Of a stretch of 32,000 nucleotides of DNA, positions 9,068 to 28,713 are shown one piece after another. Both the position numbers and the translations under genes were made by a program. Location: the NCBI GenBank assembly GCA_943789275.1, contig CALSTM010000003.1, positions 180,001 to 212,000 of the forward strand. The letters are read 5' to 3'. Source of the stretch: Candidatus Poseidoniaceae archaeon (GTDB lineage Archaea; Thermoplasmatota; Poseidoniia; Poseidoniales; Poseidoniaceae). Numbering within the stretch: the stretch's first letter is position 1; each line of letters opens with the position of its first letter. The notes below the pieces were generated by a model, which was not told the DNA's origin, did no database searches, and saw only the letters and a program-made list of their open reading frames with translations.

Positions 9068-9991
9068 TCAGACTTTCAGATTTGCTTGGCGAGCGAGTAA
9101 TACGATTCTCATGCTGTGCTCAAGCATGGCCGCATTTGACCACGCTTGGTCGAGATTGGCTCCAACCGCATAGGCTCCCATTCCCCGAACAACAACACAG
9201 CGCATGCCACCTTGATACAATGCTTCAGTAATTTGCTTCAGGAAGTCTGCAGGGTCTCCATCATCAGGGTCAACGATGATTACGTTACCAATTTGCTCTT
9301 TTCCAAGAACATCGATTGGCTGAACTAAGACGAGATCTTTCTCACAACTTGCTGCGGTGGTGTATGGGCCGTGCGAGTGGATTACCGCTGCAGGGCCGCC
9401 AGTTACAGCGCTGCTTGCCAGTGCTAGAATGACTTCCAATGTCCTCCAATCTGCTGGTGCACCTCGGGGCGCCGCTTTTCCAAGGAACCCCGCACACAAA
9501 CCTCGCTCATCAAGCCGCGGTAACATTACCCTGTTTCGAGTCGACACCATGATGCCCAGATTATCTGGATGCAACATGGCGATAGTGCCCATGGTGGCTC
9601 GAATGAGTTGTTCTCTGTCGAGTTGTCGAGCGAGACGGGCAAAGTCACTTACTATGTGAGCGCCGATGACAATGTCTTCGATGACCGCAGGCGGCATTGG
9701 GGGCGTCTCGAGTTCTTCGATAACATCAACCGCTCCAGCCATTGACATTCGTAGCCGTTCGACTTCAGCATTGAGGCGCGCGATCTCCTGTTCCGCTAGC
9801 GCCTGTTGCTCGTCGGTTGGATGAACGTTCATGTCCTGAACAGGTCGTTTTTCAGCAGATTTGACCTCGTCATTGACTGGTGAAACCTCGTGTTCAGGAA
9901 TACTTTCGTCTTTCTCCTCCACAACTTCAGCAGGAGGGTTTCCTTCAGGCTCTACTGGGGAGTCGGTAGGTGCTTCATCCGGAGTTGGCAT
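9068..9991 (-). CDS. Class II aldolase/adducin-fold protein with an acidic, coiled-coil N-terminal extension
   Basis: The C-terminal ~200 aa read AAVIHSHGPYTTAAS, MRCVVVRGMGAYAVGANLDQAWSNAAMLEHS. The reading frame stays open upstream of the ATG at 9991, up to a stop at 10184-10186, and there encodes more PSGP repeat. Confidence 0.75.
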   Translation of the reverse strand: MPTPDEAPTDSPVEPEGNPPAEVVEEKDESIPEHEVSPVNDEVKSAEKRPVQDMNVHPTDEQQALAEQEIARLNAEVERLRMSMAGAVDVIEELETPPMPPAVIEDIVIGAHIVSDFARLARQLDREQLIRATMGTIAMLHPDNLGIMVSTRNRVMLPRLDERGLCAGFLGKAAPRGAPADWRTLEVILALASSAVTGGPAAVIHSHGPYTTAASCEKDLVLVQPIDVLGKEQIGNVIIVDPDDGDPADFLKQITEALYQGGMRCVVVRGMGAYAVGANLDQAWSNAAMLEHSMRIVLLARQANLKV

Positions 9992-10611
9992 CTCTTCAAC
10001 GCTCTCCTCAGTCGCTGGTTCAGTGCTTTCCCCGTCTGCTGCAGGCGGCTCAGATGGTGGGCCGGATGGTGGGCCGGATGGTGGACCGGATGGCGGACCC
10101 GATGATGGGCGGGAAGGAGGATCAGAAGGAGGACCGGAAGGCGGACCCGATGGTCGGGACCCGATGGTGGGCCGGAAGGAGGATCAGAAGGAGGACCGGA
10201 TGGCGGACCCGATGGTGGAGTGGACGAGGGGGTTGAACTTTCGACCTCTTCATCGACTTGTTCAGATTTTTCATCAGCAGCCTCTTCAACGCTTTCCTCA
10301 GTCGCTGGTTCAGTGCCTTCTCCGTCAGCTGCAGGCGGCTCAGATGATGGACCGGATGGTGGGCCAGATGGTGGGCCGGATGGTGGACCGGATGGTGGCT
10401 GTGATGAAGGCCCAGGAGGAGGGCCACTTGGACTCGAAGGGGGTGATTCGAGGGGTGATTCTCCCTCACTTTCTTCTGTTGGGGTGGGAGCATCTTCTTC
10501 GGTTTTCTGCAACCCGCCAAGGTCGCCAAACGCAGCATCGAGTAGATTTCCGACGTGAGCATCTTTTTGTTCTTCTTTTGATTGTTCAGCAGATGTTTTT
10601 TTTCCCGCCAT
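9952..10611 (-). CDS. Acidic Pro/Ser/Gly-repeat protein; probably the 5' portion of the aldolase-fold gene, separated from it by a 2-nt frame disruption
   Basis: The first ~160 aa are (PSGP)n arrays plus acidic modules. The last ~60 aa (DHRVRLPVLLLILLPAHH...) look like out-of-frame read-through. The frame break coincides with a 14-nt unit (10149-10162) in a 12-nt periodic array. Confidence 0.5.
   Translation of the reverse strand: MAGKKTSAEQSKEEQKDAHVGNLLDAAFGDLGGLQKTEEDAPTPTEESEGESPLESPPSSPSGPPPGPSSQPPSGPPSGPPSGPPSGPSSEPPAADGEGTEPATEESVEEAADEKSEQVDEEVESSTPSSTPPSGPPSGPPSDPPSGPPSGPDHRVRLPVLLLILLPAHHRVRHPVHHPAHHPAHHLSRLQQTGKALNQRLRRALKRCQLRMKHLPTPQ
9992..10096. repeat. Copy A of a ~100-bp direct repeat (copy B at 10282-10386, offset 290 nt)
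   Basis: ctcttcaacgctctcctcagtcgctggttcagtgc...gcaggcggctcagatgg recurs at 10282 with only scattered mismatches (roughly 90% identity by eye). Both copies encode SEPPAADGE-x-TEPATEESVEE plus the start of a PSGP array. Confidence 0.8.
10053..10222. repeat. Coding tandem array of 14 units with 12-nt period (consensus GATGGTGGRCCG), one unit aberrantly 14 nt long
   Basis: Units were counted directly from the sequence. All are 12 nt except 10149-10162 (gatggtCGggaccc). Confidence 0.85.
10282..10386. repeat. Copy B of the ~100-bp direct repeat
   Basis: See copy A (9992-10096). Confidence 0.8.
10343..10414. repeat. Second coding tandem array (~6 units) of the same 12-nt repeat
   Basis: The units read gatgatggaccg, gatggtgggcca, gatggtgggccg, gatggtggaccg, gatggtggctgt, gatgaaggccca. 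Confidence 0.8.
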
Positions 10612-10644
10612 CGATAACGCCCCATACTGGCCACATGGCGCGGC

Positions 10645-10651
10645 TTAAATA
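10645..10651 (+). promoter_or_regulatory. Candidate TATA box (TTAAATA) for tRNA-Asp
   Basis: The A/T box lies about 30 nt upstream of the mature tRNA 5' end (10680) in an otherwise GC-rich spacer. Confidence 0.35.
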
Positions 10652-10813: not shown

Positions 10814-11773
10814 ATGGTCACCAAACCTAAACTTGCAGTCTCGTCGTGTTTACTCGGCCAGAAAGTTCGCTACAATGGAGATGCTGCGGAGTTCAGAGCA
10901 CTCACTCGCAAGTGGAACGGACATTTCGAACTTGTTGGCGTCTGCCCTGAAGTCGGAATTGGAATGGGCGTTCCTCGCCCAACGATTCGCTTGGTAAACG
11001 ATGGAAATTCCATTCGCCTCGTCAATCCCAAAAACAACGACGACTTCACAGACCGTATGCTGGAATATGCGCAACTTCAAGCCGATGTTTTGGTCGAATC
11101 AGGAATTTGCGGGTTTGTGTTCAAGAAGGATTCACCAAGCTGTGGCCTTGAACGGGTGAAAGTCTACCGAGAAGGCCACGTTCACGCTACACGCGACGGC
11201 AGAGGCATGTTTGCCAAAGTATTCACAACACTCTACCCGCACATCCCAGTTATCGAAGAAGGCCGCCTTACCGATGCACGGCAGGCTGAACATTACTTAG
11301 CACGCGTTCATTTCTTTTCACTGTGGCGAGAAGAAGGCTTGAACGGGTGGACTGCTCAAGCACTGATGCAGTTTCACAACACGAACAAACTCTTCCTCCT
11401 CAGCCGTTCCCCTGATGCAAAACGGCGTCTTGGCCGCCTTATTGCTGAAGGATTTGACAACGGAGACCGTGCAGAAACTGTTGCTTTGGCCTACATGACA
11501 GAGGCGCAACAATCCCTGAATGTACTCACGAAAAGTGGCCCAATTGCCCATGCGATGGAGCGCGTGCTGGGTAAGATTTCTCACAATCTTACCAAAGGCG
11601 AAAGGCAAGAAATGCTTGATGTGATCCATGATTTCCGACAGGGATTACTTCCACGCTCAGCCCCGTTAACCCTACTGCAGCACCACGTACGCAGGTGCAA
11701 CCTCGACACCCCAACGCATCGCCGATTTATGTCACCGATCCCACTTTCGCTCGGTCTGATGGCGAGAGTTTGA
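10814..11773 (+). CDS. DUF523 (TudS-like) plus DUF1722 fusion protein, YbgA-like
   Basis: The N-terminal part reads KLAVSSCLLGQKVRYNG...CPEVGIGMGVPRP...SPSCG, the DUF523 Cys pattern. The C-terminal helical half resembles DUF1722. Confidence 0.75.
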   Translation: MVTKPKLAVSSCLLGQKVRYNGDAAEFRALTRKWNGHFELVGVCPEVGIGMGVPRPTIRLVNDGNSIRLVNPKNNDDFTDRMLEYAQLQADVLVESGICGFVFKKDSPSCGLERVKVYREGHVHATRDGRGMFAKVFTTLYPHIPVIEEGRLTDARQAEHYLARVHFFSLWREEGLNGWTAQALMQFHNTNKLFLLSRSPDAKRRLGRLIAEGFDNGDRAETVALAYMTEAQQSLNVLTKSGPIAHAMERVLGKISHNLTKGERQEMLDVIHDFRQGLLPRSAPLTLLQHHVRRCNLDTPTHRRFMSPIPLSLGLMARV

Positions 11774-11777
11774 CGGC

Positions 11778-13199
11778 TCATTGATTTTTACGCTGTGAAC
11801 GATACTCTTCGAGTGCCTTTGCACGCATTCCTTCAAGGATTCCAACACTGTCCGTGATATCCGAAACAGTGATGTTGATGACCCAAAGTCCATAGTTGTG
11901 TAATCCGCTGTTGATTTCATGGATTAATCCTTGATAAAACCACTCTTGCGAGCGGTTGATGTCCTTAATGGTCATTGAGCGTATAGCCTTGGGGAATCTC
12001 TCTTCAATGATGGCACGAGTTCTTGCTTCAATCTCAGCCTCCGACAGACCGTTTAATTCTCGAGCGGCCGTATCCGATAGCGGGGGCTCTTCTCCCACGC
12101 CGACAACCAACCTCACGGGAATCGTCAACGGAACACTTTCCTTTTCCGGGATATCTTGAAAGTTGAAGTTGAGCGTCATTGGCTCGATGACACTCGGTGG
12201 GTTGGAATTACGCGTTAGTTCAAGAATTTTAATTTGGCAGGCGACAGCTCTTGCACCAACCTCTTTCAACTCCATACTCGCACCTGCTGCGAAGGCTTGA
12301 AAATTACGCCAGACAGGACGATCGAAACCTTCCCGCTCCGGGTCTTTGATATGTTCATAAACAAGCCATGTGAGAGTTTGCTCAATACCTTTTTTCAAGT
12401 ATATTTTCATCAAGTTGGCATATTCGTCATCCGATAAAGTCCGAAGATAGCGATAACGAGGGCTGGACCACTCCTCAAACGAACCGATGACATCTGGATC
12501 GGATTCTATACCGAATCGAGCCTCGTATTTTATCTGTGTGTGGTCTTTTTTCAACGTCCCCTCGCCGGCGACTGATATTTTGATGAGACAATCCATGTGA
12601 CGCTCCATAGGCGCAGCCACCTGTGAACTCGTTTCTTGAACGGCATGGTTCTCTTCGATTGTTGGAGAAAGGTTGAGGATTTGGAATCTGAGCAATTTCA
12701 ACCCATTCTCCTGCAATTCATGGCGGCAGCAGTTGTTGAGATGGTCCATAAAAAGGCCAGGCCTATGCTGATATGTGCCAGCATATCTTGGAGATTGTAT
12801 GGTTTGTTGAACGCCCCGCATGAGGGTCCCACGGACATCCTCTTCCAATCGACGCTGACGAAGTTCAACCAATTTAAACAACATGTCCGGTGTGAAGTTT
12901 TGGTCATCTGAAAAGTGAATTCCGATGGAGAGGTTTGAGTCGACGAGTTCTCCTGAGTGGGCTTTTGTTCTTGAGCGAAGATTGAACTCCATCGGCTCAA
13001 GTGAAAAAACAGCGTGGCGATGGTACATGGGCAGGAGAAACTTTCGACCGTTTCTGTAGACGATTGGCGTTTGTTCTTCACTGGTCGCTACGATGAGTAT
13101 CTGTTGAGGCCCGACTTTCACTGTGAACGAAATCGCCAGCAACCCGATGCCTAACAGCAGCAGAACGCTGAATACGATGGCGACAATCAACAAGTCCAT
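11778..13199 (-). CDS. Flotillin-like SPFH/band-7 domain membrane protein
   Basis: An N-terminal TM (LLIVAIVFSVLLLLGIGLLAI) is followed by VKVGPQQILIV...FLLPMYHRHAVFSLEPMEFNL, typical of the SPFH start, and then a long helical C-terminal region. The ORF track start is GTG 13229; I prefer the ATG at 13199. Confidence 0.65.
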   Translation of the reverse strand: MDLLIVAIVFSVLLLLGIGLLAISFTVKVGPQQILIVATSEEQTPIVYRNGRKFLLPMYHRHAVFSLEPMEFNLRSRTKAHSGELVDSNLSIGIHFSDDQNFTPDMLFKLVELRQRRLEEDVRGTLMRGVQQTIQSPRYAGTYQHRPGLFMDHLNNCCRHELQENGLKLLRFQILNLSPTIEENHAVQETSSQVAAPMERHMDCLIKISVAGEGTLKKDHTQIKYEARFGIESDPDVIGSFEEWSSPRYRYLRTLSDDEYANLMKIYLKKGIEQTLTWLVYEHIKDPEREGFDRPVWRNFQAFAAGASMELKEVGARAVACQIKILELTRNSNPPSVIEPMTLNFNFQDIPEKESVPLTIPVRLVVGVGEEPPLSDTAARELNGLSEAEIEARTRAIIEERFPKAIRSMTIKDINRSQEWFYQGLIHEINSGLHNYGLWVINITVSDITDSVGILEGMRAKALEEYRSQRKNQ

Positions 13200-13262
13200 G
13201 CTCTTCTCACACCGGAGTTTCCTTTTCACTTTATCGCGAATACCTCAACTGATTCTGCTTTC

Positions 13263-13269
13263 TTTATAT
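13263..13269 (+). promoter_or_regulatory. Candidate TATA box (TTTATAT) in the divergent flotillin / tandem-module intergenic region
   Basis: The A/T box lies about 40 nt upstream of the ATG at 13306. A GAGGAG Shine-Dalgarno-like element sits at 13292-13297. Confidence 0.3.
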
Positions 13270-13305
13270 CCAGTTGAAGATTTACCTTTACGAGGAGAGA
13301 TACCC

Positions 13306-13731
13306 ATGAGTGAAAAAACATACACCGTAGAAATTGCAGATGCCACTGGACACAGCGTTGTCGAGATGACCAAGACTGAACTGATAAGACAAGCTTCCAA
13401 CACCAAAGGAAGTTGGGTTTTTGTTGACAACAAGATGGTTGCCGCCGATGAATTGGCGAACACGAATTTTGACGACGCCCAGCACATCAGAATGGTTCCG
13501 GCCCTACAAGCTGGAAAAGACGAGAAAACATACACTGTAGAGATTGCAGATGCCACTGGACACAGCGTTGTCGAGATGACCAAGACGGATCTCATCAACC
13601 AAGCAACCAGTGCCAAAGGCAGTTGGGTGTTCGTCGACAACAAAATGGTCGCTGCGAATGAACTTGCAGATACAGATTTCGACTCTGCTCAGCACATCAG
13701 AATGGTTCCTGCATTGCAAGCAGGCCAGTGA
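13306..13731 (+). CDS. Small protein made of two tandem 70-aa modules (possible tandem beta-grasp / ubiquitin-like domains)
   Basis: The ATG at 13306 is preceded by GAGGAG. The 141-aa product is MS + [EKTYTVEIADATGHSVVEMTKT...HIRMVPALQAGKD] + [the same module ending QAGQ]. The ORF track extends the frame upstream to 13123, but that part is antisense to the flotillin 5' end. Confidence 0.75.
   Translation: MSEKTYTVEIADATGHSVVEMTKTELIRQASNTKGSWVFVDNKMVAADELANTNFDDAQHIRMVPALQAGKDEKTYTVEIADATGHSVVEMTKTDLINQATSAKGSWVFVDNKMVAANELADTDFDSAQHIRMVPALQAGQ
13312..13728 (+). repeat. Coding tandem duplication, 2 x 210 nt (13312-13521 and 13522-13728)
   Basis: Direct alignment of the two copies shows about 59 of 69 aa identical, with perfect nucleotide blocks of 44 nt (13333-13376 = 13543-13586) and 20 nt. 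Confidence 0.9.
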
Positions 13732-13815: not shown

Positions 13816-13965
13816 ATGGTTGAACTTGTTGATTACAAATGTGCAGTCTGCGGAAACCTCGAATCCTTCCACCGCGAACGTAACGGAATCAGCTGCAAAT
13901 CTTGCGGCTCTCGCATCTTCATGAAGTTGCGTCGAACCGGTACGAAGCGACTCAAGGCAGAGTGA
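13816..13965 (+). CDS. rpoP: DNA-directed RNA polymerase subunit P (Rpo12 / RPABC4 homologue)
   Basis: 49-aa ORF below the ORF-track size cut-off: MVELVDYKCAVCGNLESFHRERNGISCKSCGSRIFMKLRRTGTKRLKAE. It has the Y-x-C-x2-C-G...I-x-C-x2-C-G-x-R-I zinc-ribbon pattern and a basic tail. GGAG lies 10 nt upstream. Confidence 0.8.
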   Translation: MVELVDYKCAVCGNLESFHRERNGISCKSCGSRIFMKLRRTGTKRLKAE

Positions 13966-14021: not shown

Positions 14022-15167
14022 ATGTCATCTTGGCTTACTGACAAAGCACCGCTTCTTTTTGAAGAGTTGTTGCTACCAGAGGCCGTCCGTACCAGCATTA
14101 CTCGCACATCGCTTCAAGCAAATCCCCCTCATCTCCTTTTTTCAGGTCCATCAGGGGTCGGCAAGACCGCCACTTGGCGCTTGATGGCGCGTCAAGTTCT
14201 TGGCCCAACTTGGGAGGCACGAACTCATATTCTTCAAGCTCGCGACTTGGCGAGAACTTCAGGCGCAATGGGAAAATTCGAAGAATTTCTACGGCCCGAG
14301 GGCAGCGGCTCAGACGATACACTTGCAGGTCGAACCAGCCTTGACGCCTTTGATCACACGTTTTCCGCAACAGCGGCCAACACGCCCCCTCCTGCCGGAG
14401 CCGAATGCGAACACTCTGCCGGACAAAGAGCAGCAGTATCTCGCCTCATCATCATCGAAGATGCGGATTATCTGGGGACAATACGCCAATCGTATCTGCG
14501 CCGAATGATGGAGGTGAGCAGTGGCAGCGCCCGGTTTATTTTCACCGCCCACACGCCTTCACGCATCATTGAAGCATTGCGCAGCAGAACCCAACACATT
14601 CGCCTTCCAAAAATCAACCGATCTCTCATTGAATCACGCCTGATGCAAATTGTTCAAGAAGAGAATCTCACTCCCGTTCGCGGCATTATTGGAGACATTT
14701 CACACGTGTCCTCAGGCAATGTTCGTAAGGCTATTTTCATCATGGAACTCCTTACGCACCGAGACCTTCTTGGTGACAGGAAAAACCTGCAAAACCTGCT
14801 TGCAGCAACATCTCTGCGAGAAGTGCAACACATCTTGGAAGAAGCCTTGCGTAATCGAGTCCACGACTGGCGTTGGGAAAAAGAAGGTAACAAGAACAAA
14901 CGCGTCCTCAAGGGTGCAATGGGCGTTTTGGACCAAGTGATGTCAGAGAATAATCTCGAGTCCGAAGATATCGTCGAACAATTTCATTTGTTGTTGACCG
15001 AAGGACGTCTCCATCTTGATGAGAACATTCTTTCTGAGATACTCGTGGCCCTTTCGGCGTGTGATGTCGCGCTCCATCGAAGTATGCAAGGGCGAATTGA
15101 ACTGGAACGATTTTTGTTTCAAGTTGCCGACATTGGTCAACGGATGAATGCTGCGAAAGCGTCTTGA
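14022..15167 (+). CDS. rfcS: Replication factor C (clamp loader) AAA+ subunit, divergent small-subunit-like
   Basis: Walker A reads LLFSGPSGVGKT and the Walker B region reads RLIIIEDADYL. The sensor region reads ARFIFTAHTPSRIIEALRSRTQHIRL, with SRT where RFC small subunits have SRC. A C-terminal helical collar is present, as is a ~40-aa low-complexity insertion between Walker A and Walker B. Confidence 0.65.
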   Translation: MSSWLTDKAPLLFEELLLPEAVRTSITRTSLQANPPHLLFSGPSGVGKTATWRLMARQVLGPTWEARTHILQARDLARTSGAMGKFEEFLRPEGSGSDDTLAGRTSLDAFDHTFSATAANTPPPAGAECEHSAGQRAAVSRLIIIEDADYLGTIRQSYLRRMMEVSSGSARFIFTAHTPSRIIEALRSRTQHIRLPKINRSLIESRLMQIVQEENLTPVRGIIGDISHVSSGNVRKAIFIMELLTHRDLLGDRKNLQNLLAATSLREVQHILEEALRNRVHDWRWEKEGNKNKRVLKGAMGVLDQVMSENNLESEDIVEQFHLLLTEGRLHLDENILSEILVALSACDVALHRSMQGRIELERFLFQVADIGQRMNAAKAS

Positions 15168-15282: not shown

Positions 15283-16662
15283 TCAATAGGTGATATGAAC
15301 CAGTTTGTTGACTCGGTCAGACCCACTCATGATGGCATAGAAATCGTTACCACCGTTTGTTGAAGAGGAGGTGACGTATTGCACACCATCGATGATTCCG
15401 ATTTGCACAACGCTCTGGGACGCTACATCATACGAAACAAACACTTCGACACCCGCCTGCGAATCGTATGCATATCCATAGATGAGGCCATCGACGAGGT
15501 TTATCTCAAATCCACCTGCATTGGATAGGTCTTCATTTGTCGATTGCAACACTGTGGATGTTGTCATTGAATAATCGAGCGTATTGATTTTGACCATCGA
15601 ATAACCACCTCCGCTGTTTCGTACATCGAGATAGTAATGTGCGCCGTCGTATGCAGAAGTACCGGAACCCACCCCTTCGATATCTTCGATCTGGGTATGC
15701 TTGGTTACCACTGCATCAATTGGGTTGATTGAAACAACATAGATATCAGGGTATGTGATTGTATTTTGTTGCCCTTGTCCTTGCCCTTGACTTCCGCTGT
15801 TTGTATCGTCAGAAGCATAAGCATAGATGATTTCATCCTCATGATTGTATTCCATGCCCCCGACATTATCCAATTCTGGGTGAGCGGAGAAATCAAACTG
15901 CGTCATTGTGTATTGACTCGGGTCTGATACCGTGACATGCACCAGGTAGTCGTTGTTGTTCCCGCGCATGTTGGCAAAATATTCCCCATCGGAATAGGTC
16001 GTCACAGAGGCGACCGTCTCTATCCCTGCCAATTCAATTAATGAGGTCACTAAGCCATTGGAAGGGTCAATGGAGATGAAGTGTTCCACATTTGTAACGC
16101 TGTCCCACGCATAGCCGTAGAGAAGATTTGTCGAACAATCGATTTCAATACCCCCGATGTTTGTGAAATCTGGGTTTGCACTGATGTCAAAAGCAATCAT
16201 TGTTGAACTGTACGTTCCATCACCCGTTCCGCATTCTGTGGTTCCAGTTCCACTCCCGTCTCCTGGGTCTGTGTCGCCGTTGTCACCTGGTTCTGTGCCG
16301 CCGTTGTCTCCAGAGCCTGAACCACCGTTGTCTTCGGGGGCTGTGCCGCCGTTGTCTTCAGGGTCGGTCACATTTCCTCCGTTTCCAGAGTTGCCGTCAT
16401 CTGTGTCTGAGCCATCATCGGTGTTATCGTTACCGTTGCCGGTCCCGTTCACTGGCTCTCCGTTGCTGCCATCATCCGTATTTCCATTGCCCGTTCCTGT
16501 ATCGGTTCCTGAACCGCCGTTTGAGCCGTTGATGACTTCATCCGTATCGTCAATTGCCGGGTCCTCTTCGGGAACGGGTTCAACGACGATTGGGTCTTCA
16601 ATACACCCTGCTAAAGATGCTGAAAGCATGAGGAAAACAAGTAGGGCGGTGGGACGAATCAT
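15283..16662 (-). CDS. Secreted/lipobox protein with a Gly/Asn/Asp/Thr-rich acidic linker and three ~100-aa repeats
   Basis: The signal peptide ends in LAGC (lipobox-like). A ~110-aa low-complexity acidic linker follows. Three repeats then share N(I/V/A)GG(I/M/F)E...(L/I)IY(G/A)YA..D and ...LVH(V/I)T. Confidence 0.7.
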   Translation of the reverse strand: MIRPTALLVFLMLSASLAGCIEDPIVVEPVPEEDPAIDDTDEVINGSNGGSGTDTGTGNGNTDDGSNGEPVNGTGNGNDNTDDGSDTDDGNSGNGGNVTDPEDNGGTAPEDNGGSGSGDNGGTEPGDNGDTDPGDGSGTGTTECGTGDGTYSSTMIAFDISANPDFTNIGGIEIDCSTNLLYGYAWDSVTNVEHFISIDPSNGLVTSLIELAGIETVASVTTYSDGEYFANMRGNNNDYLVHVTVSDPSQYTMTQFDFSAHPELDNVGGMEYNHEDEIIYAYASDDTNSGSQGQGQGQQNTITYPDIYVVSINPIDAVVTKHTQIEDIEGVGSGTSAYDGAHYYLDVRNSGGGYSMVKINTLDYSMTTSTVLQSTNEDLSNAGGFEINLVDGLIYGYAYDSQAGVEVFVSYDVASQSVVQIGIIDGVQYVTSSSTNGGNDFYAIMSGSDRVNKLVHITY

Positions 16663-23622: not shown

Positions 23623-26600
23623 ATGGGTCAAAAAATAAAGTCAGTCAGTCTTGTATCAATCATGTTGCTTTCCGTCATGTCGACGCTCTTCTTGGCGTCT
23701 CTTACCGCAACAGCGAACACCGTCGTCATCACCGAAGCAATTCAAATCGTTGACGGAGGAACTTCATCCGATACTCAAACTTCAGTCGGCTCTGACAGTG
23801 AAGGAAACGTTCACGTCGTTTGGACTCGGAACAACCTTCACCTCTACTACTCGATGATTTCTCCTCGTGGTGACACCTTGATTGACACCACGCAGATTTC
23901 AAACCCAGGTCTTCACAAAATCTGGCACCCAGACATGGTTGTTGACGAAAACGACAAGATTCACGTTGTTTGGGCTGATAAGTCAGGCCAACACAAAATC
24001 ATGTACACCGTCCTCAACCCTTGGGCATCATCCATGGACGGCATGGCCTCAGACGATGGAACACTTTCTGCAATTGACGACTACGTTGTCTCAAGCCGTG
24101 CGCAAAACCGCGACTGGCCAGCAATCGACATTGACAGCCAAGGCGGCGTTCATATTGTCTGGGAAGATTCCTACGACTCAGAAGGCAAGTTCTTCAGCCA
24201 ACCACAGATCTACTACACCATGTTGTCACCAGATATCAGCAGTGGCGCAGTCATTGTCAATTTTGACGATACCCTTCTGACTCCAATCATTGGTCACAAA
24301 GGCCACCCTGACGTCGTCGTTGACGCAAACGATTACGTCCAAATCGCTTGGGACGACACCCGAGGTGGAAAGGTCGAGCTCAGTTTCATCGTTGACACCT
24401 CCGGTTCCATGTACTCGGAATGGGCGGACATCTGTACCGTTGTTTACGGTGGGAACTTTGCTTCCGGCGGTTACTTCCAAGGTATCAAGCCAATGCTTGA
24501 AACCGCAAACATGACTGTTTACGAAACCATCTACGGTCTTGGAAATACACTCCCTGGTGCTGCAAGTTCAGGTAACTGCGCTGGTAAGAACCAAAATTCT
24601 GGCCCTCGCACAACGCCTTTGGGTCAAACACCAGGTGACGACTCTGGCGGTATTCGAAAGCTACCGGGGACCGTCTACAACGGCAACACTTACTCCGGAT
24701 ATTCCGGTGAAGATTGGGGCCCAGGAACCAACTGGGGTTGCCTTTCATGGAAAGACGCTCAAGGAAACGTCCCAGGAAACCCGCCAACTCAAGACGACCA
24801 CCGATGGAATCCAAACGCAACAAAGATCATCATTCCAGTTTCAGACGAAGGTCCGAAAGACGGTGACCCATCTCAACAAGCAGATGACCTGACCTCTATT
24901 GAAGAGGCGCACGACAACTGTATCAACGCAGGAGTCATTCCAGTCGGTCTTTACGGACAAGGATACGGTGGAGCCGGTAACATCCAATCCCACTTCATGG
25001 ATTTAGTCCAATGTCCAAACAACGTCGTTTCGACCCAAACTCGAAACTGCCCAGGTAACACGCTACGAAGTTCAGACGCTGGTGGACAAGCCTATGAGTT
25101 CCCATCCGGAACCGGTGGAAACAACGCAATGGCTTTGCTTGTTGAAGCAATGGTTTACATCTCTACAAACAACTCTCGTGAAATCTACATGACTGTTCTG
25201 GACCCATACGGTAAGATGAACAACGACCCGTCTTGGACTCCAGGCGCAACAGGACACTCAGTTGTCAACGGCGAATACGTCGAAGATACCGGTGCTGGTG
25301 CAGACGGCCACCTCGTGGTTGTCAACGACACCCGTGTCACCATTGACGATGCTTACTCGTTCCACCCATCGATTGGTGTTGACATGCAAGGCAACACCCA
25401 CATTGCATGGATGGACGGCCGAAACTATGGATTTGAGAAGGCTGTGAACTACGAAGTGTTCTACACCAAACTCCGACTTCAAGGTGCAGGTGCGTGGGAC
25501 GGTGCTGACCAAGGACTTTCCACCTACGCTATCAAGAAGATTCAGGATACTCCAATCTCGAATGTTGAAGGAAACGGTGGACTCCCTGGTAACCGGCCGT
25601 TTGGTGGAAACTCCGTATTCCCTGCTCTGCTTACTGATGACCAAAACAACGTTCACATTGCGTGGGTCGATTCAGGAAACGCAACTGCTGATGAAGAAAT
25701 CATTTACACTCGCCTGAACTCTACTGACTTGACTGGGCCGGGCCTTACTGCTCTTGACCCTTGGGAAAACGTGCCCGTCACCTCATGGGCAAGCAACAAA
25801 CTTGGGCCAAACTCTGGCAGTCAGCCGAGCATAGGCATGCCTCCAGCGTTTTCGAACGATTTGGGAAGTGGCGCGCATATCGCTTGGTCGGACACGAATA
25901 AATGCGGTGAAGACGCCAACAATAACCGCTTCACGATCTGTTATTCCCACGTTCTCACCGGTCAGGTTGACGTTGAATTCCAAGATGGAGAAACGTACTA
26001 CCACGTTATCGAACCTGGTCAGCAAACCATCTACAACATGTCAATGAACAACTCGACCCCAGGTCCAAAAGACCTTGTCGCTGATACGTTCGGACTCAAC
26101 ATCTCTGGTGTTCCCCAAAACTGGACTGCTACACTGTTCTTTGCTGATAACCATACGACAATAATGCCAGACACGCCTATCTTCCTCGAAGGTGGAGAAG
26201 ACATTCGCTTCTACATGCGAATTCGTGCTCCGTCGGTGTACCAAGCTGAAGCGGACCAGATTGCCGATATATCGGTGATTGCTAAATCGTACAAGGACCC
26301 TGCTATTCAGTCCGACCTCGTCACTCGTACGCTGATGGACGTTGTTCACGGCATAAACCTGGACACCTCCCACAGCATGGCAGACGTCGAACAAGGCCAA
26401 ACTGCGATTTTCTCGATTACGATTACCAACACAGGCAACGTCAACGACCAATTCGTATTCTGGGACCCGTATACACTTGAAGGCCGCCAAGAGTGGCTGC
26501 TTCAATTCGGTTGGACTGTAAACTTCCCAACCAGTGTAGAATTAGACCCTGGACAATCCGTTACCAAGAACCTCGAAGTCTTCGTCCCAACATCCGAAGA

Positions 26601-28713
26601 CCCCGGTTCTTTCGTTATTTATCTCAAGGGATGGTCTGCTGGCGAACCGATTAAGTCGATTGAAAAAGGAACATACGACGTCCTTGAACTCGGTGTTTTC
26701 GTTTCGATTCGTTCAACTGGAAACATCGTCATGGAATTGTTCGATACCAGTGAATATGTTGACCCCGGAGAATGTGCAACCTATCCTATTGATGTCACCA
26801 AGAATTTCGATTCTGGTAAACTTGTCTTCGTGACCCCCGGTGCACCTGAACAAAAGCCCGACACCATCTCGATGGATGCTTGGAGAGAAGATAACTGGGT
26901 ATTAAACCTCGATTTCTCCAATGCTCCGGGAGGCAACTCTGTTGACCTCAGCGAGCCACGAGATTGGAACATACCTCCAGGTGCAGAATTTGTTACCTAC
27001 GAAGTCAGCGTCGAAGTGTGCGCTCCGACCAAAGCTTCTGCCGGTCTTGGTCCTGCGGTTATCGTCAAAGCCTATCTTGACGGCTATCCAAGAATTTCAT
27101 CGTCAAAGATTCTCTCAACCAATGTCAACCACGTGTATCAATTAAGCGCAAGTGCAGACATTGCTGATGAAGATAAGATCACTTTGGACGGCCAAGAAGT
27201 TCTCCCGGTGAACCCTGGACAGCAGGTGGTTATGCCAACTACCGTTACGAATCTTGGAAACGGCCCAGATCGATTCGACTACCGACTTGCTCGTGTTACT
27301 GACCCTGCTGGCGTTGACGTCATCTGGGACATTGAAATCCCTCGTGACAGTCTCGACGAACTTTCCCGTGACACCAACCAAATCTTTGACATCACAATGA
27401 ATGTTCCAGACCAAGTTGAAGCTGGTGTTTACACCGTTGTATTCCAGACCTTCTCGGAAGAATCCTATCCAGATGCAAGCGGTCGTTTGACACGACTGCG
27501 ATTCACTCAGACCATTCCTGTCTATGTTCAAGAGTTCTATGACATGCAAATCAGCATGGACTCAACTGTGGACAATGCAGTGAAGACATCCGCACCTGGG
27601 CGAATTGTGCGGTTTGAATTGAACATCACAAACAATGGTAACGTTCCTGATTGGCCAACGCTCAACAACCACACGGCTAAGATTGATGGTGACACTCAAA
27701 TCATGAGTGAGTTGCCTGGAATGGGTACATTGTCCGAATGGTCTGTCGAATGGCAACTTATCAAGCAAATCGGAACCGACCTCACCACAGAGGAACCCTG
27801 TGAAACAGTTGCTTCGCTCGAAAGCACAACTGGAGACGAAGATGCAGCAATGAATCCAGAAGTGGCATTTGCTGACTTGGCTGACCGTTGTATTTACCTT
27901 GAATCTGAAGACCGCTATTTCATGCCAATGATGGATGCTTACACGACAATTCCAGTCGTTGCTATTGTCAAGATTGACCCGTCTGCTGTTCTCAGCACGC
28001 GCCCGGTCGGCTTGAAGGTCGTCTCGAAGATGGGCAACATGTTGGACGGTGGCGACCATGACGATTCTCCGTCTTGGGCAGCAGAAAACCTCGATACAAA
28101 CGAATTCGTCGTTACGCTACGATTGCGAGCTCCGAACTTGATCATCTCAGAAGTTTCCGTCTCGGACGATACTGGAGATGTAGACACTACGATTCCTATC
28201 CGTGTCGTGTTGCAAAACGATGGAAACACGCATGCAACAGATATTGAAATCGTATTGTGTGAATACAAAGATGCTGCTGATGCGGACATTATCAAGGACA
28301 TTCGAAAGAACGGCTGTGACGATGAAAACATCGTTATGAGGCAAGTCATTGGTGCACTCCTTGCTCCAGATGACACGGAAGATTACAAGGAAATCGAACT
28401 TGTTCTGCTCTACCCTGTTTCAGCTGGTAGCCACGGTGTTTACGTCGTTGTGGACCCATCAAATGAGATTGTTGAATCATCCGAGAACGACAACGTCAAG
28501 TCAGTCGAACAAGAACTCAAGTCGTCTGGAGGCATTCTTGACGTCGCTGGTGAAGTGGTTGGAAAGACTGCTCTACCGTTCGCAGTTATTCTACTGACCA
28601 TTGCTTTGTTCGGTGTCGTGTTCCTTGTTGGACGAGGACGCCGACAGGACGTTTTGGACCGAAAGGCTGAGCAATCATCCCTCGTGTCGGTTTTGGCCGG
28701 CGCAGAAGACTGA
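23623..28713 (+). CDS. Giant (1696 aa) membrane-anchored surface protein: signal peptide, propeller-like repeats with a nested vWA domain, multiple CARDB/Ig-like domains, C-terminal TM anchor
   Basis: The signal peptide reads VSLVSIMLLSVMSTLFLASLTATA. Seven H-(V/I)-(V/A)-W-x-D repeats are present. The MIDAS motif reads FIVDTSGSM. Repeated TNTGN / TNLGNGPD / TNNGNVPD / QNDGNTHA motifs are typical of CARDB-like domains. The TM anchor lies at 28570-28629 and is followed by GRGRRQ. Confidence 0.9.
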   Translation: MGQKIKSVSLVSIMLLSVMSTLFLASLTATANTVVITEAIQIVDGGTSSDTQTSVGSDSEGNVHVVWTRNNLHLYYSMISPRGDTLIDTTQISNPGLHKIWHPDMVVDENDKIHVVWADKSGQHKIMYTVLNPWASSMDGMASDDGTLSAIDDYVVSSRAQNRDWPAIDIDSQGGVHIVWEDSYDSEGKFFSQPQIYYTMLSPDISSGAVIVNFDDTLLTPIIGHKGHPDVVVDANDYVQIAWDDTRGGKVELSFIVDTSGSMYSEWADICTVVYGGNFASGGYFQGIKPMLETANMTVYETIYGLGNTLPGAASSGNCAGKNQNSGPRTTPLGQTPGDDSGGIRKLPGTVYNGNTYSGYSGEDWGPGTNWGCLSWKDAQGNVPGNPPTQDDHRWNPNATKIIIPVSDEGPKDGDPSQQADDLTSIEEAHDNCINAGVIPVGLYGQGYGGAGNIQSHFMDLVQCPNNVVSTQTRNCPGNTLRSSDAGGQAYEFPSGTGGNNAMALLVEAMVYISTNNSREIYMTVLDPYGKMNNDPSWTPGATGHSVVNGEYVEDTGAGADGHLVVVNDTRVTIDDAYSFHPSIGVDMQGNTHIAWMDGRNYGFEKAVNYEVFYTKLRLQGAGAWDGADQGLSTYAIKKIQDTPISNVEGNGGLPGNRPFGGNSVFPALLTDDQNNVHIAWVDSGNATADEEIIYTRLNSTDLTGPGLTALDPWENVPVTSWASNKLGPNSGSQPSIGMPPAFSNDLGSGAHIAWSDTNKCGEDANNNRFTICYSHVLTGQVDVEFQDGETYYHVIEPGQQTIYNMSMNNSTPGPKDLVADTFGLNISGVPQNWTATLFFADNHTTIMPDTPIFLEGGEDIRFYMRIRAPSVYQAEADQIADISVIAKSYKDPAIQSDLVTRTLMDVVHGINLDTSHSMADVEQGQTAIFSITITNTGNVNDQFVFWDPYTLEGRQEWLLQFGWTVNFPTSVELDPGQSVTKNLEVFVPTSEDPGSFVIYLKGWSAGEPIKSIEKGTYDVLELGVFVSIRSTGNIVMELFDTSEYVDPGECATYPIDVTKNFDSGKLVFVTPGAPEQKPDTISMDAWREDNWVLNLDFSNAPGGNSVDLSEPRDWNIPPGAEFVTYEVSVEVCAPTKASAGLGPAVIVKAYLDGYPRISSSKILSTNVNHVYQLSASADIADEDKITLDGQEVLPVNPGQQVVMPTTVTNLGNGPDRFDYRLARVTDPAGVDVIWDIEIPRDSLDELSRDTNQIFDITMNVPDQVEAGVYTVVFQTFSEESYPDASGRLTRLRFTQTIPVYVQEFYDMQISMDSTVDNAVKTSAPGRIVRFELNITNNGNVPDWPTLNNHTAKIDGDTQIMSELPGMGTLSEWSVEWQLIKQIGTDLTTEEPCETVASLESTTGDEDAAMNPEVAFADLADRCIYLESEDRYFMPMMDAYTTIPVVAIVKIDPSAVLSTRPVGLKVVSKMGNMLDGGDHDDSPSWAAENLDTNEFVVTLRLRAPNLIISEVSVSDDTGDVDTTIPIRVVLQNDGNTHATDIEIVLCEYKDAADADIIKDIRKNGCDDENIVMRQVIGALLAPDDTEDYKEIELVLLYPVSAGSHGVYVVVDPSNEIVESSENDNVKSVEQELKSSGGILDVAGEVVGKTALPFAVILLTIALFGVVFLVGRGRRQDVLDRKAEQSSLVSVLAGAED
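24373..25167 (+). other. von Willebrand factor A (vWA) domain region of the giant protein (aa ~251-515)
   Basis: The D-x-S-x-S MIDAS motif begins at 24394 (DTSGS). The later strand KIIIPVSDEGP follows, then the helix-strand pattern AHDNCINAGVIPVGLYG. Confidence 0.7.

What the first reader, a model, noticed from the sequence alone, without database searches (positions are those of the whole stretch)
13306..13731. Two head-to-tail ~70-aa modules that look like a fused pair of ThiS/MoaD/SAMP-type beta-grasp domains, each ending VPALQAG
Seen directly: the 141-aa product is MS followed by two copies of one module (about 59 of 69 aa identical). The two modules are joined without a linker, as ...HIRMVPALQAG-KD-EKTYTVEI.... 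Inference: each module has the size and hydrophobic pattern of small sulfur-carrier or ubiquitin-like beta-grasp proteins. The pattern is a beta1 strand YTVEI, then a helix TKTELIRQA, then W-VFVDNKMV, then a terminal strand HIRMV followed by a small-residue tail. This compares with the ...V-x-V-L-R-x-I-x-GG ends of ThiS, MoaD and archaeal SAMPs. The tails here are AG-K and AG-Q rather than GG, and the head-to-tail layout recalls polyubiquitin-type precursors. No E1-like, JAMM or sulfurtransferase gene is in the window. The neighbours are a divergent flotillin gene and rpoP. If the fold holds, this would be an unusual tandem Ubl in an archaeon with non-canonical C-termini. If it does not, it is still an uncharacterised, selectively maintained duplicated domain.
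Basis: partly seen in the sequence, partly recalled or inferred. Interest (0 to 1): 0.7.

Follow-up and report, generated by a model that had tools for sequence, protein, structure and literature searches.

The report
Polyubiquitin-style tandem Ubl gene in MGII archaea
This gene of a marine group II archaeon encodes two head-to-tail ubiquitin-like domains laid out like a eukaryotic polyubiquitin precursor, and it belongs to an undescribed protein family whose relatives sit beside, or are fused to, the enzymes that activate and trim ubiquitin-like tags.

Summary
ORF 13306-13731 (+) encodes 141 aa: two 70-aa units (59 identities at offset 70, at most 6 at any other offset), each ending VPALQAG, plus one final Gln.

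AlphaFold gives each unit the beta-grasp order of secondary-structure elements. Foldseek's best matches are ISG15, linear di-ubiquitin, SUMO and other Ubl domains. No Pfam family or PDB sequence matches.

The family is essentially confined to Poseidoniales. In 75 genes from species-representative genomes, 170 of 170 modules end GG (128) or AG (42). Module number is 1 to 4. No complete gene ends at a bare GG; each has a 1-6 residue cap. Patchy gene-conversion tracts link the modules. The gene has its own conserved TATA-like and SD-like elements and nearly always lies upstream of rpoP and an RFC-like gene.

More distant relatives are fused to a ThiF-type E1, or lie in operons with a compact E1 and a JAMM protease.

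Best reading: a polyubiquitin-like precursor, cut after each (G/A)G and then activated by an E1. Cleavage, conjugation and presence of the E1 and JAMM genes in the same genome were not shown. The window holds neither enzyme.

Verdict: a real feature, a new variant of a known kind, interest 0.7.

The parts
13306..13731 (+). Tandem ubiquitin-like (poly-Ubl) gene: 141 codons plus stop
   Evidence: There are 46 close homologues, and orthologues in 79 Poseidoniales loci.
13306..13515 (+). Module 1 (residues 1-70): a predicted beta-grasp domain ending ...HIRMVPALQAG
   Evidence: AF2 secondary structure E5-12, E15-22, H23-32, E37-40, E43-46, H47-50, E61-64. Module model pLDDT 84.9. Foldseek matches are Ubl domains.
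13516..13725 (+). Module 2 (residues 71-140): a second beta-grasp domain with the same ending, VPALQAG
   Evidence: AF2 shows the same element order at residues 75-134. 59 of 70 residues are identical to module 1.
13510..13515 (+). Internal Ala-Gly (A69-G70), the predicted processing and activation site. The equivalent position is Gly-Gly in most relatives.
   Evidence: 170 of 170 modules in 75 Poseidoniales genes end GG (128) or AG (42). Cleavage itself is inferred.
13720..13728 (+). Terminal Ala-Gly (A139-G140) followed by a one-residue cap (Q141)
   Evidence: No complete orthologue ends at the bare Gly; caps are 1-6 residues, and Q is the commonest (17 of 75).
13315..13374 (+). 5' tract of module 1 homogenised with the matching tract of module 2 (13525-13584); a likely gene-conversion tract
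   Evidence: 18 of the first 20 module codons are identical between the two modules, against 16 of 38 same-residue codons in the rest (p = 6e-4). The same pattern is seen in L012-L015.
13263..13269 (+). TTTATAT: a TATA-box-like element ending 37 nt before the ATG
   Evidence: Read directly. An equivalent (T)TTATAT / TTCATATAC element sits at the same distance in nearly all of the 79 orthologous loci. Promoter function is inferred.
13292..13297 (+). GAGGAG: a Shine-Dalgarno-like motif 9 nt before the ATG
   Evidence: GAGGAG / GGAGGA / AGGTGA is conserved at this position in the orthologues.
13816..13965 (+). rpoP (RNA polymerase subunit P), the conserved downstream neighbour
   Evidence: PF03604, E = 2.3e-6, above the curated cut-off. 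It lies directly downstream of the poly-Ubl gene in 78 of the loci examined.
14022..15167 (+). RFC-like AAA+ protein, the conserved second downstream neighbour
   Evidence: AAA, RFC lid and Rep_fac_C hits. Present downstream in 77 loci.
11778..13229 (-). Band_7/flotillin gene, divergently oriented. It is a clade-specific insertion between the TudS-like gene and the poly-Ubl gene.
   Evidence: PF01145, E = 1.3e-14. Present in only 12 loci, all close relatives of the window.
10814..11773 (+). 2-thiouracil desulfurase-like gene (PF04463 plus DUF1722), a frequent upstream neighbour of the poly-Ubl gene
   Evidence: Found upstream in 36 loci, directly adjacent where no flotillin gene intervenes. 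A functional link is not shown.

Best explanation
The gene encodes a polyubiquitin-style precursor of a previously undescribed archaeal ubiquitin-like (Ubl) family. Each 70-residue unit is a beta-grasp domain with a flexible tail ending in (G/A)G.

The proposed pathway has three steps. First, a JAMM-type metalloprotease removes the one-residue cap (Q141) and cuts after A69-G70, releasing two slightly different Ubl monomers. Second, a compact ThiF-type E1 adenylates the exposed C-terminal glycine. Third, the activated Ubl is passed on to protein lysines, as in SAMPylation, or possibly carries sulfur, as SAMPs and Urm1 can.

Shown here: the repeat, the purifying selection, the predicted fold, the invariant (G/A)G at every module end, the obligatory cap, variable module number with gene conversion, and the fusion or operon linkage of family members to an E1 and a JAMM protease.

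Inferred: cleavage at the internal and terminal sites, which E1 and protease act on this paralogue, and the downstream targets.
For: Fold: AF2 models, with ISG15, linear di-ubiquitin, OASL tandem Ubl, SUMO, Get5 and ubiquilin UBLs, TtuB and the bacterial BilA Ubl as the Foldseek matches.

C-terminus: 170 of 170 modules end GG or AG. All 95 internal junctions keep it, even where modules within one gene share only 33-45% identity, for example L065 and L068. Distant single-module relatives end exactly at ...VGG or ...LQAG.

Precursor-like organisation: genes carry 1 (3 genes), 2 (51), 3 (19) or 4 (1) modules at the same locus. L085 modules 2 and 3 are identical in protein sequence. Gene-conversion tracts lie in different parts of the module in different lineages (p down to 5e-7). 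Every complete gene has a 1-6 residue cap.

Enzyme link: P0054 and P0080 are Ubl modules fused to ThiF (PF00899, E about 1e-17). The gene downstream of these fusions carries an invariant E...HxHx7Sx2D JAMM motif. Ubl, E1 and JAMM genes recur together in L007-L010, L090-L092, L093-L106 and L107-L108. One of these operons is in a MAG labelled Candidatus Poseidoniaceae.

AG ending: a 67-aa relative that ends in a bare ...PALQAG lies two genes upstream of a ThiF gene, and no JAMM motif is present in that locus. So an AG end does occur in an E1 context.

Expression signals: a conserved TATA-like box and SD-like motif, and dN/dS of 0.05.
Against: No E1 or JAMM gene lies in the 32-kb window or within 10 kb of the gene in any of 79 orthologous loci.

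Presence of this gene and of the E1-JAMM operon in the same genome was not shown. Only the same family- or order-level taxon labels link them.

The E1 operons carry their own Ubl, which is only 31% identical to a window module. Their enzymes may be dedicated to that paralogue.

The modules of one gene are not identical to each other (33-100%) and keep position-specific residues. That also fits a fixed multi-domain protein.

Multi-domain bacterial Ubls were studied as intact two- or three-domain proteins (PMC11601603), and ISG15 (own knowledge) acts uncleaved.

The penultimate Ala is unusual for an E1 or DUB substrate.

There is no proteomic or biochemical evidence.
Confidence: 0.55

Rival explanations
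1. It is an uncleaved di-Ubl modifier of the ISG15, FAT10 or bacterial Bil/Bub Ubl2-Ubl3 type. Only the terminal cap is trimmed, and the whole two-domain protein is activated at G140 and attached to targets, or assembles into oligomers.
For: The best Foldseek matches of the full model are ISG15 and tandem Ubls. Bacterial Ubls with 2-3 beta-grasp domains were characterised as intact monomers or dimers (PMC11601603). Modules keep position-specific differences across species; for example, module 2 reads NEIVEQAKQQSG...SCMVATDAL in many orthologues.
Against: All 95 internal junctions keep (G/A)G, even between modules only 33-45% identical. By own knowledge (not tested here), the N-terminal domains of ISG15 and FAT10 do not end in GG. 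Module number varies from 1 to 4 at one orthologous locus, and single-module genes exist. This argues that one module is the functional unit.
Confidence: 0.2
2. It is mainly a sulfur carrier of the ThiS, MoaD, TtuB or SAMP2/Urm1 type. The C-terminal glycine would be thiocarboxylated after E1 adenylation for tRNA or cofactor thiolation, with the tandem layout only raising dosage.
For: The partner E1 is a minimal ThiF-type enzyme, and no E2 was recognised in the operons. TtuB is among the better structural matches (TM 0.64). Two of 36 modules give weak ThiS hits. A 2-thiouracil desulfurase-like gene is the upstream neighbour in 36 loci. Archaeal Ubls are thought to have an ancestral role in tRNA modification (PMC2948915).
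Against: No ThiG, MoaE, TtuA/NcsA or rhodanese partner was seen in the window or in the operons examined. The operons instead hold zinc-ribbon proteins, a JAMM protease and an AAA+ ATPase. Capped, multi-copy precursors are not (own knowledge) a known feature of ThiS or MoaD. In the window clade the TudS-like neighbour is separated from the gene by an inserted flotillin gene.
Confidence: 0.15
3. It is a non-conjugated Ubl-domain adaptor that acts in transcription or replication. It would bind RNA polymerase, RFC/PCNA or a Cdc48/proteasome-type ATPase through its beta-grasp surfaces, and the C-terminal motif would be structural.
For: The order poly-Ubl, rpoP, RFC-like gene is near-universal (78 and 77 loci). 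The most conserved feature is the strand1-strand2 hairpin, E-I-A-D-x-T-G-H-S (A8, D9, G12 and H13 invariant), not only the tail. No E1 or JAMM gene is nearby.
Against: The gene has its own conserved TATA-like and SD-like elements. The invariant terminal Gly, the obligatory short cap, bare GG or AG ends in single-module relatives, and repeated fusion or operon linkage to E1 and JAMM are hard to explain for a mere binding domain.
Confidence: 0.1

Closest known systems
Eukaryotic polyubiquitin genes (yeast UBI4, human UBB/UBC)
   Same: Head-to-tail beta-grasp units with no spacer. A small-residue-Gly end at every unit. An extra cap residue after the last unit. Unit number that varies between species. 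Homogenisation between units by gene conversion.
   Different: No sequence homology to ubiquitin (no PF00240 hit; hhalign probability 11%). Units within one gene are 33-100% identical rather than identical. The end is AG in this clade. The enzymes linked to the family are a minimal ThiF E1 and a JAMM protease; no E2, E3, USP or UCH was recognised. Processing is not shown.
Haloferax SAMP1/2/3 with UbaA (E1) and HvJAMM1
   Same: An archaeal beta-grasp Ubl ending in Gly, a single ThiF/MoeB-type E1, no E2 recognised, and a JAMM metalloprotease that can cleave after the C-terminal Gly (PMC4443979, PMC2948915).
   Different: By own knowledge, SAMPs are single-domain, belong to the ThiS/MoaD sequence families and end in a bare GG. 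This family matches no Pfam model, is encoded as capped arrays of 1 to 4 units, and its E1 is a short form of about 210 aa.
Caldiarchaeum subterraneum ubiquitin operon with CsRpn11
   Same: An archaeal Ubl made as a precursor with a C-terminal extension that a JAMM/Rpn11 protease removes (PMC6043591).
   Different: That system has a genuine ubiquitin homologue together with E1, E2 and RING E3 in one operon (PMC3082918, PMC5654768). Here the tandem gene stands alone beside rpoP, and no E2 or E3 is evident.
Bacterial polyUbl (Iyer, Burroughs and Aravind 2006, operon type 6e) and Bil/Bub Ubl2/Ubl3
   Same: Prokaryotic proteins with 2-3 tandem beta-grasp domains, genomically tied to E1 and JAB enzymes (PMC1779556, PMC11601603). 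BilA appears among the structural matches.
   Different: Those are bacterial, are encoded inside the E1/E2/JAB operon, and were characterised as intact multi-domain proteins. Here the array is archaeal, detached from the enzymes, a syntenic core gene, and keeps (G/A)G at every junction. Whether the bacterial internal domains keep GG was not checked.
ISG15 and FAT10 (vertebrate di-Ubl modifiers)
   Same: Two beta-grasp domains in one chain. ISG15 is the top Foldseek match of the whole model (E = 1.2e-5).
   Different: By own knowledge, these are not cleaved between domains and the first domain lacks a GG end. The match has a low TM-score (0.24) because the relative orientation of the two domains in the model is undefined (pTM 0.47).

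Membership tests
Ubiquitin-like beta-grasp fold | Strand-strand-helix-strand-strand-(short helix)-strand order, with the helix packed on a mixed sheet | tested here: met
Conjugatable Ubl / sulfur-carrier Ubl (functional class) | A flexible C-terminal tail ending in Gly (usually Gly-Gly) | tested here: met
   The terminal Gly is invariant. 128 modules end GG and 42 end AG, out of 170. The tail is unstructured with lower pLDDT. In this window the end is AG, not GG.
Conjugatable Ubl / sulfur-carrier Ubl (functional class) | A cognate ThiF/MoeB/E1-type adenylating enzyme | tested here: inconclusive
   Family members are fused to ThiF or lie in E1 operons. None is in the window or within 10 kb of 79 orthologues. 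Presence in the same genome was not shown.
Conjugatable Ubl / sulfur-carrier Ubl (functional class) | A protease that exposes the C-terminal Gly when the Ubl is made with an extension | tested here: inconclusive
   A protein with the JAMM motif (HxHx7Sx2D) lies next to the E1 in every operon whose Ubl has a tail, and is absent where the Ubl ends in a bare QAG. Activity on the tandem protein is untested.
Conjugatable Ubl / sulfur-carrier Ubl (functional class) | Isopeptide conjugates or a C-terminal thiocarboxylate | not testable with these tools
   Needs proteomics or biochemistry.
ThiS/MoaD/SAMP sequence family (PF02597) | A significant match to the family profile | tested here: not met
   The query has no ThiS hit. 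Two of 36 diverse modules hit ThiS, at best E = 0.0026, below the cut-off.
Ubiquitin family proper (PF00240) | A significant match to the ubiquitin profile | tested here: not met
   No hit. hhalign against ubiquitin gives probability 11%, although the alignment is in register to the C-terminal GG. A PDB sequence-profile search found nothing.
Polyubiquitin-type precursor organisation | Spacer-free head-to-tail units, each with the conjugation motif, plus a terminal cap | tested here: met
   Leads between units are 2-6 residues and mirror the N-terminal lead of unit 1.
Polyubiquitin-type precursor organisation | Variable unit number and concerted evolution | tested here: met
   1 to 4 modules per gene. 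Significant gene-conversion tracts.
Polyubiquitin-type precursor organisation | Proteolytic release of monomers | not testable with these tools
   Inferred only.
Bacterial polyUbl / Bub-Bil multi-domain Ubl | Encoded within an operon with E1, E2-like and JAB genes | tested here: not met
   The tandem gene is never within 10 kb of an E1 or JAMM gene. PADLOC gives no system-level hit.

The most novel reading that the evidence does not exclude
Marine group II archaea, among the most abundant archaea of the surface ocean, run a working polyubiquitin-like system. A housekeeping array of 1 to 4 Ubl units is cut into monomers by a JAMM protease, and the monomers are conjugated through a minimal E1 without a recognisable E2. 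On this reading the polyubiquitin gene layout (capped, spacer-free, concerted repeats) arose independently outside eukaryotes, in a Ubl family unrelated in sequence to ubiquitin.
Probability: 0.4. Interest if true: 0.85.

Novelty: new variant of a known kind. Interest (0 to 1): 0.7.

Why it matters
Ubiquitin-like tagging in archaea is known from SAMPs, Urm1-like proteins and the eukaryote-like operons of Caldiarchaeum and the Asgard archaea. The capped, multi-copy precursor gene layout is best known from eukaryotic polyubiquitin. Here the same layout appears in Thermoplasmatota, in a sequence family that Pfam and the PDB do not cover. It is conserved as a core syntenic gene across Poseidoniales, and its paralogues are tied to a minimal E1 and a JAMM protease.

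If processing is confirmed, three things follow. It would be an independent example of how selection for Ubl dosage produces polyubiquitin-type genes. It would give a compact E1-JAMM-Ubl system for mechanistic study. And it would give a function to a widespread "hypothetical protein" of an uncultured but ecologically dominant archaeal group.

It also makes a specific proteomic prediction that existing ocean metaproteomes can test: C-terminal ...MVPALQAG peptides, and MVPALQAG remnants on lysines.

Tried and rejected
Pfam on the protein, on one module and on 36 diverse modules gave nothing above cut-off. The only recurrent weak hits were ThiS and Lambda_tail_I, both beta-grasp families.

A profile search of the PDB sequences found nothing.

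The broad module alignment A3 was too diverse for locus scanning, so A2 was used instead.

Viral origin is rejected. Only 2 distant matches turned up in 2.9 million IMG/VR contigs.

Known defence system is rejected. PADLOC gave no hit for the Ubl, the JAMM protein or the zinc-ribbon proteins. The E1 weakly resembles the E1 domain of PADLOC's 'E1-E2' models.

I tried to show that the tandem gene and the E1 operon are in one MAG, using NCBI locus-tag prefixes and record names. No shared MAG was found among the members listed. This is neither proof nor disproof.

The upstream GTG start (13123) and the antisense ORFs are rejected as mechanical.

A functional link to the flotillin neighbour is rejected: it is present in only 12 close relatives.

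The report of a UCH DUB and RING E3s in one MGII single-cell genome (PMC4327156) was not followed up and may reflect contamination.

Full report
OBSERVATION. The ORF runs from ATG 13306 to TGA 13729-13731 and encodes 141 residues. Self-comparison gives 59 identities at offset 70 and only 2 to 6 at every other offset from 60 to 79. The protein is therefore two 70-residue units (residues 1-70 and 71-140), each ending HIRMVPALQAG, plus a final Gln. The KDE that follows the first QAG corresponds to the MSE lead of unit 1, so the units abut without a spacer. At DNA level the units are 79% identical. Synonymous sites are saturated (dS about 1.8), dN is 0.084 and dN/dS is about 0.05. Both copies are thus old and under strong purifying selection. 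The longer GTG-started ORF and the antisense ORFs are mechanical. Orthologues in about 79 species all start at the aligned ATG. Each has a TTTATAT-like box about 33-42 nt upstream of the ATG and a GAGGAG, GGAGGA or AGGTGA motif 6-10 nt upstream (window positions 13263-13269 and 13292-13297).

THE FAMILY AND ITS C-TERMINUS. The word-indexed search found 46 homologues, all from marine metagenomes or from MAGs labelled Poseidoniaceae or Euryarchaeota, with one, two or three modules. An exhaustive profile search of 1.84 billion representative proteins found 168 clusters. Across all of them the last residue of the module is Gly. The penultimate residue is Gly in most (PGLVGG, PGIVGG, PPLVGG), Ala in the window's clade and in a few distant members (PALQAG), and rarely Tyr or Phe. 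Many single-module relatives end exactly at ...VGG or ...LQAG, for example P0086, P0087, P0121, P0159 and P0160. The long extensions that do occur are fusions to the activating enzyme itself, described below.

A DYNAMIC ARRAY AT A FIXED LOCUS. A scan of one genome per GTDB species gave 94 hits; the 79 loci kept are all Poseidoniales MAGs, including the original MG-II assembly CM001443.1. In 74 genes with cleanly delimited modules, the module number is 1 (3 genes), 2 (51), 3 (19) or 4 (1). Identity between modules within one gene ranges from 33% to 100%. All 170 modules in 75 genes end GG (128) or AG (42). All 95 internal junctions keep the motif.

Codon-level comparison shows patchy homogenisation. 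In the window and its closest relatives the first 20 module codons are 90% codon-identical, against 42% of same-residue codons in the rest (p = 6e-4). In L082, L083 and L089 it is the last 47 codons that are 98-100% codon-identical while the first 20 have diverged (p = 5e-5 to 5e-7).

The order poly-Ubl, rpoP, RFC-like gene holds in 78 and 77 of the loci examined. A 2-thiouracil-desulfurase-like gene lies upstream in 36. The flotillin gene is an insertion found only in the window's clade, in 12 loci. The window's other genes are ordinary chromosomal ones: primase large subunit, topoisomerase VI A, an SdhA-like flavoprotein, a HIT protein and others.

LINK TO E1 AND JAMM. Two representatives, P0054 and P0080, are two or one Ubl modules fused to the N-terminus of a ThiF domain (PF00899, E about 1e-17). 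P0054's cluster includes NCBI proteins from Poseidoniales MAGs. The gene that overlaps their 3' end encodes a 171-179-aa protein with an invariant Glu and WVHTHPxxxAYWSxTD. This is the JAMM signature E...HxHx7Sx2D; the Pfam Prok-JAB hit is weak.

Other relatives lie in operons of the form: zinc-ribbon protein, Ubl (sometimes with a roughly 310-residue unknown domain), compact ThiF of 209-218 aa, JAMM protein, and an acidic protein of 71-81 aa. In contigs labelled Poseidoniales or Poseidoniaceae, including GCA_022451835.1, this block is highly conserved. A T7-like single-subunit RNA polymerase gene lies upstream and an AAA+ ATPase gene downstream. The Ubl of this block is a 92-residue single module ending GG-MINNEYRR. 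Two IMG/VR contigs carry the same Ubl, E1 and JAMM trio.

One relative that ends in a bare ...PALQAG lies two genes upstream of a ThiF gene, in a locus with no JAMM motif. An AG end therefore occurs in an E1 context, and the protease is absent where there is no tail to remove. That correlation rests on a single case.

GAPS. The window has no E1, JAMM or rhodanese gene. None lies within 10 kb of the gene in any of the 79 orthologous loci. I could not show that the tandem gene and the E1-JAMM operon occur in one genome; the link rests on shared taxon labels. The operon Ubl is only 31% identical to a window module, so the operon enzymes may be specific for their own Ubl. No experiment bears on cleavage or conjugation.

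MECHANISM AND RIVALS. The best-supported reading (confidence 0.55) is a polyubiquitin-style precursor. A JAMM protease removes the cap and cuts after each (G/A)G, and the released monomers are adenylated by a ThiF-type E1 and passed to targets. Four observations favour it: the motif is retained at junctions between modules that have diverged to 33-45% identity, every gene is capped, module number varies from 1 to 4 with single-module genes at the same locus, and paralogues are tied to E1 and JAMM.

The main rival (0.2) is an uncleaved multi-domain modifier like ISG15 or the bacterial Bil/Bub Ubl2/Ubl3 proteins, which were characterised as intact proteins (PMC11601603). A sulfur-carrier role (0.15) is compatible with the minimal E1 and with the TudS-like neighbour, and it could coexist with conjugation as in SAMPs and Urm1; however, no sulfur-insertion partner was seen. 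A non-conjugated adaptor tied to RNA polymerase or RFC (0.1) would explain the synteny and the invariant strand1-strand2 hairpin (A8, D9, G12, H13), but not the terminal features.

COMPARISON WITH KNOWN SYSTEMS. In function the closest parallel is eukaryotic polyubiquitin: spacer-free units, the motif at each end, a cap, copy-number variation and concerted evolution. The gene is not a member of the ubiquitin, ThiS or MoaD sequence families. The enzyme set resembles the archaeal SAMP-UbaA-HvJAMM1 system (PMC4443979, PMC2948915) and the Rpn11-dependent maturation of Caldiarchaeum ubiquitin (PMC6043591). Tandem prokaryotic Ubls were predicted in bacteria in 2006 (operon type 6e, PMC1779556), but those are bacterial and are encoded inside the enzyme operons. 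Full-text searches found no paper on a Ubl system or a tandem Ubl in marine group II. One survey reported a UCH DUB and RING E3s in a single MGII single-cell genome (PMC4327156).

VERDICT. It is a new sequence family and a new variant of a known kind of system. Interest is 0.7. A specialist in ubiquitin evolution would find a capped, copy-number-variable poly-Ubl gene in Thermoplasmatota surprising, and the model can be tested directly by proteomics and simple biochemistry.

Noticed in passing
L093:2687-13034 (also L094-L106; L096 = GCA_022451835.1; variants in L007, L008, L090, L092): A conserved Poseidoniales gene block. In order: a T7-like single-subunit RNA polymerase (PF00940, about 1280-1330 aa); one or two roughly 430-aa proteins with an N-terminal CxxC...CxxC zinc ribbon and no Pfam match; a 92-aa Ubl; a compact ThiF E1; a JAMM protein; an acidic 71-81-aa protein; and an AAA+ ATPase of 465-484 aa. 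The only PADLOC matches are the E1's weak hits to the 'E1-E2' models and AAA+ hits to IetA/TRIP13. A phage-type RNA polymerase in an archaeal chromosome next to a Ubl system is unexplained.
   Followed up: partly
L107:617-12758 and L108 (IMG/VR UViGs): Contigs classed as viral carry the same trio of Ubl, ThiF E1 and JAMM protein, together with a TFIIB-zinc-ribbon/HTH protein, a UvrD-type helicase, a pyrimidine-dimer glycosylase and a group II chaperonin. They may be viruses or mobile elements of marine group II archaea.
   Followed up: partly
Orthologous loci L011-L089 (C-terminal caps); the window cap is Q141 at 13726-13728: 31 of 75 tandem-Ubl genes have a cap that ends in Cys (RAC, LAC, NHC, SVC, MANEVC, AQEASC and others). 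Many single-module relatives also end GG-x(0-4)-C. No explanation was found.
   Followed up: no
Module residues 8-14 (window 13327-13347 and 13537-13557): The strand1-strand2 hairpin, A-D-x-T-G-H-S, is the most conserved part of the family apart from the terminal Gly (A8, D9, G12 and H13 invariant in alignment A2). Such conservation of this hairpin was unexpected. It may be an enzyme-recognition or metal-binding site.
   Followed up: no
L109:6406-10459 (GCA_053530615.1) and L110: An operon holding a 67-aa Ubl that ends in a bare ...PALQAG, flanked by unknown 336-aa and 553-aa proteins (weak DUF7737 hits), and a 187-aa ThiF. No JAMM motif is present. The PALQAG and PGLVGG endings look like two alternative, co-varying C-terminal motifs.
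   Followed up: partly
window 10814-11773 (+) and 36 orthologous loci: A 2-thiouracil-desulfurase-like gene (PF04463 plus DUF1722) is the usual upstream neighbour of the tandem Ubl gene. In the window's clade a flotillin gene has been inserted between the two.
   Followed up: partly
window 9860-10650, both strands: Overlapping ORFs rich in Pro/Ser/Gly repeats (SGPPSGPP... on the minus strand, GGPDGGPD... on the plus strand). This is a low-complexity region with no Pfam match, and the coding strand is unclear.
   Followed up: no
window 23623-28713 (+) and 15283-16662 (-): A 1696-aa protein with weak CARDB, NPCBM_assoc and DUF7507 hits, and a 459-aa protein with an acidic Asp/Gly/Asn/Thr-rich N-terminal region and no Pfam hit. 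Both are probably cell-surface proteins.
   Followed up: no
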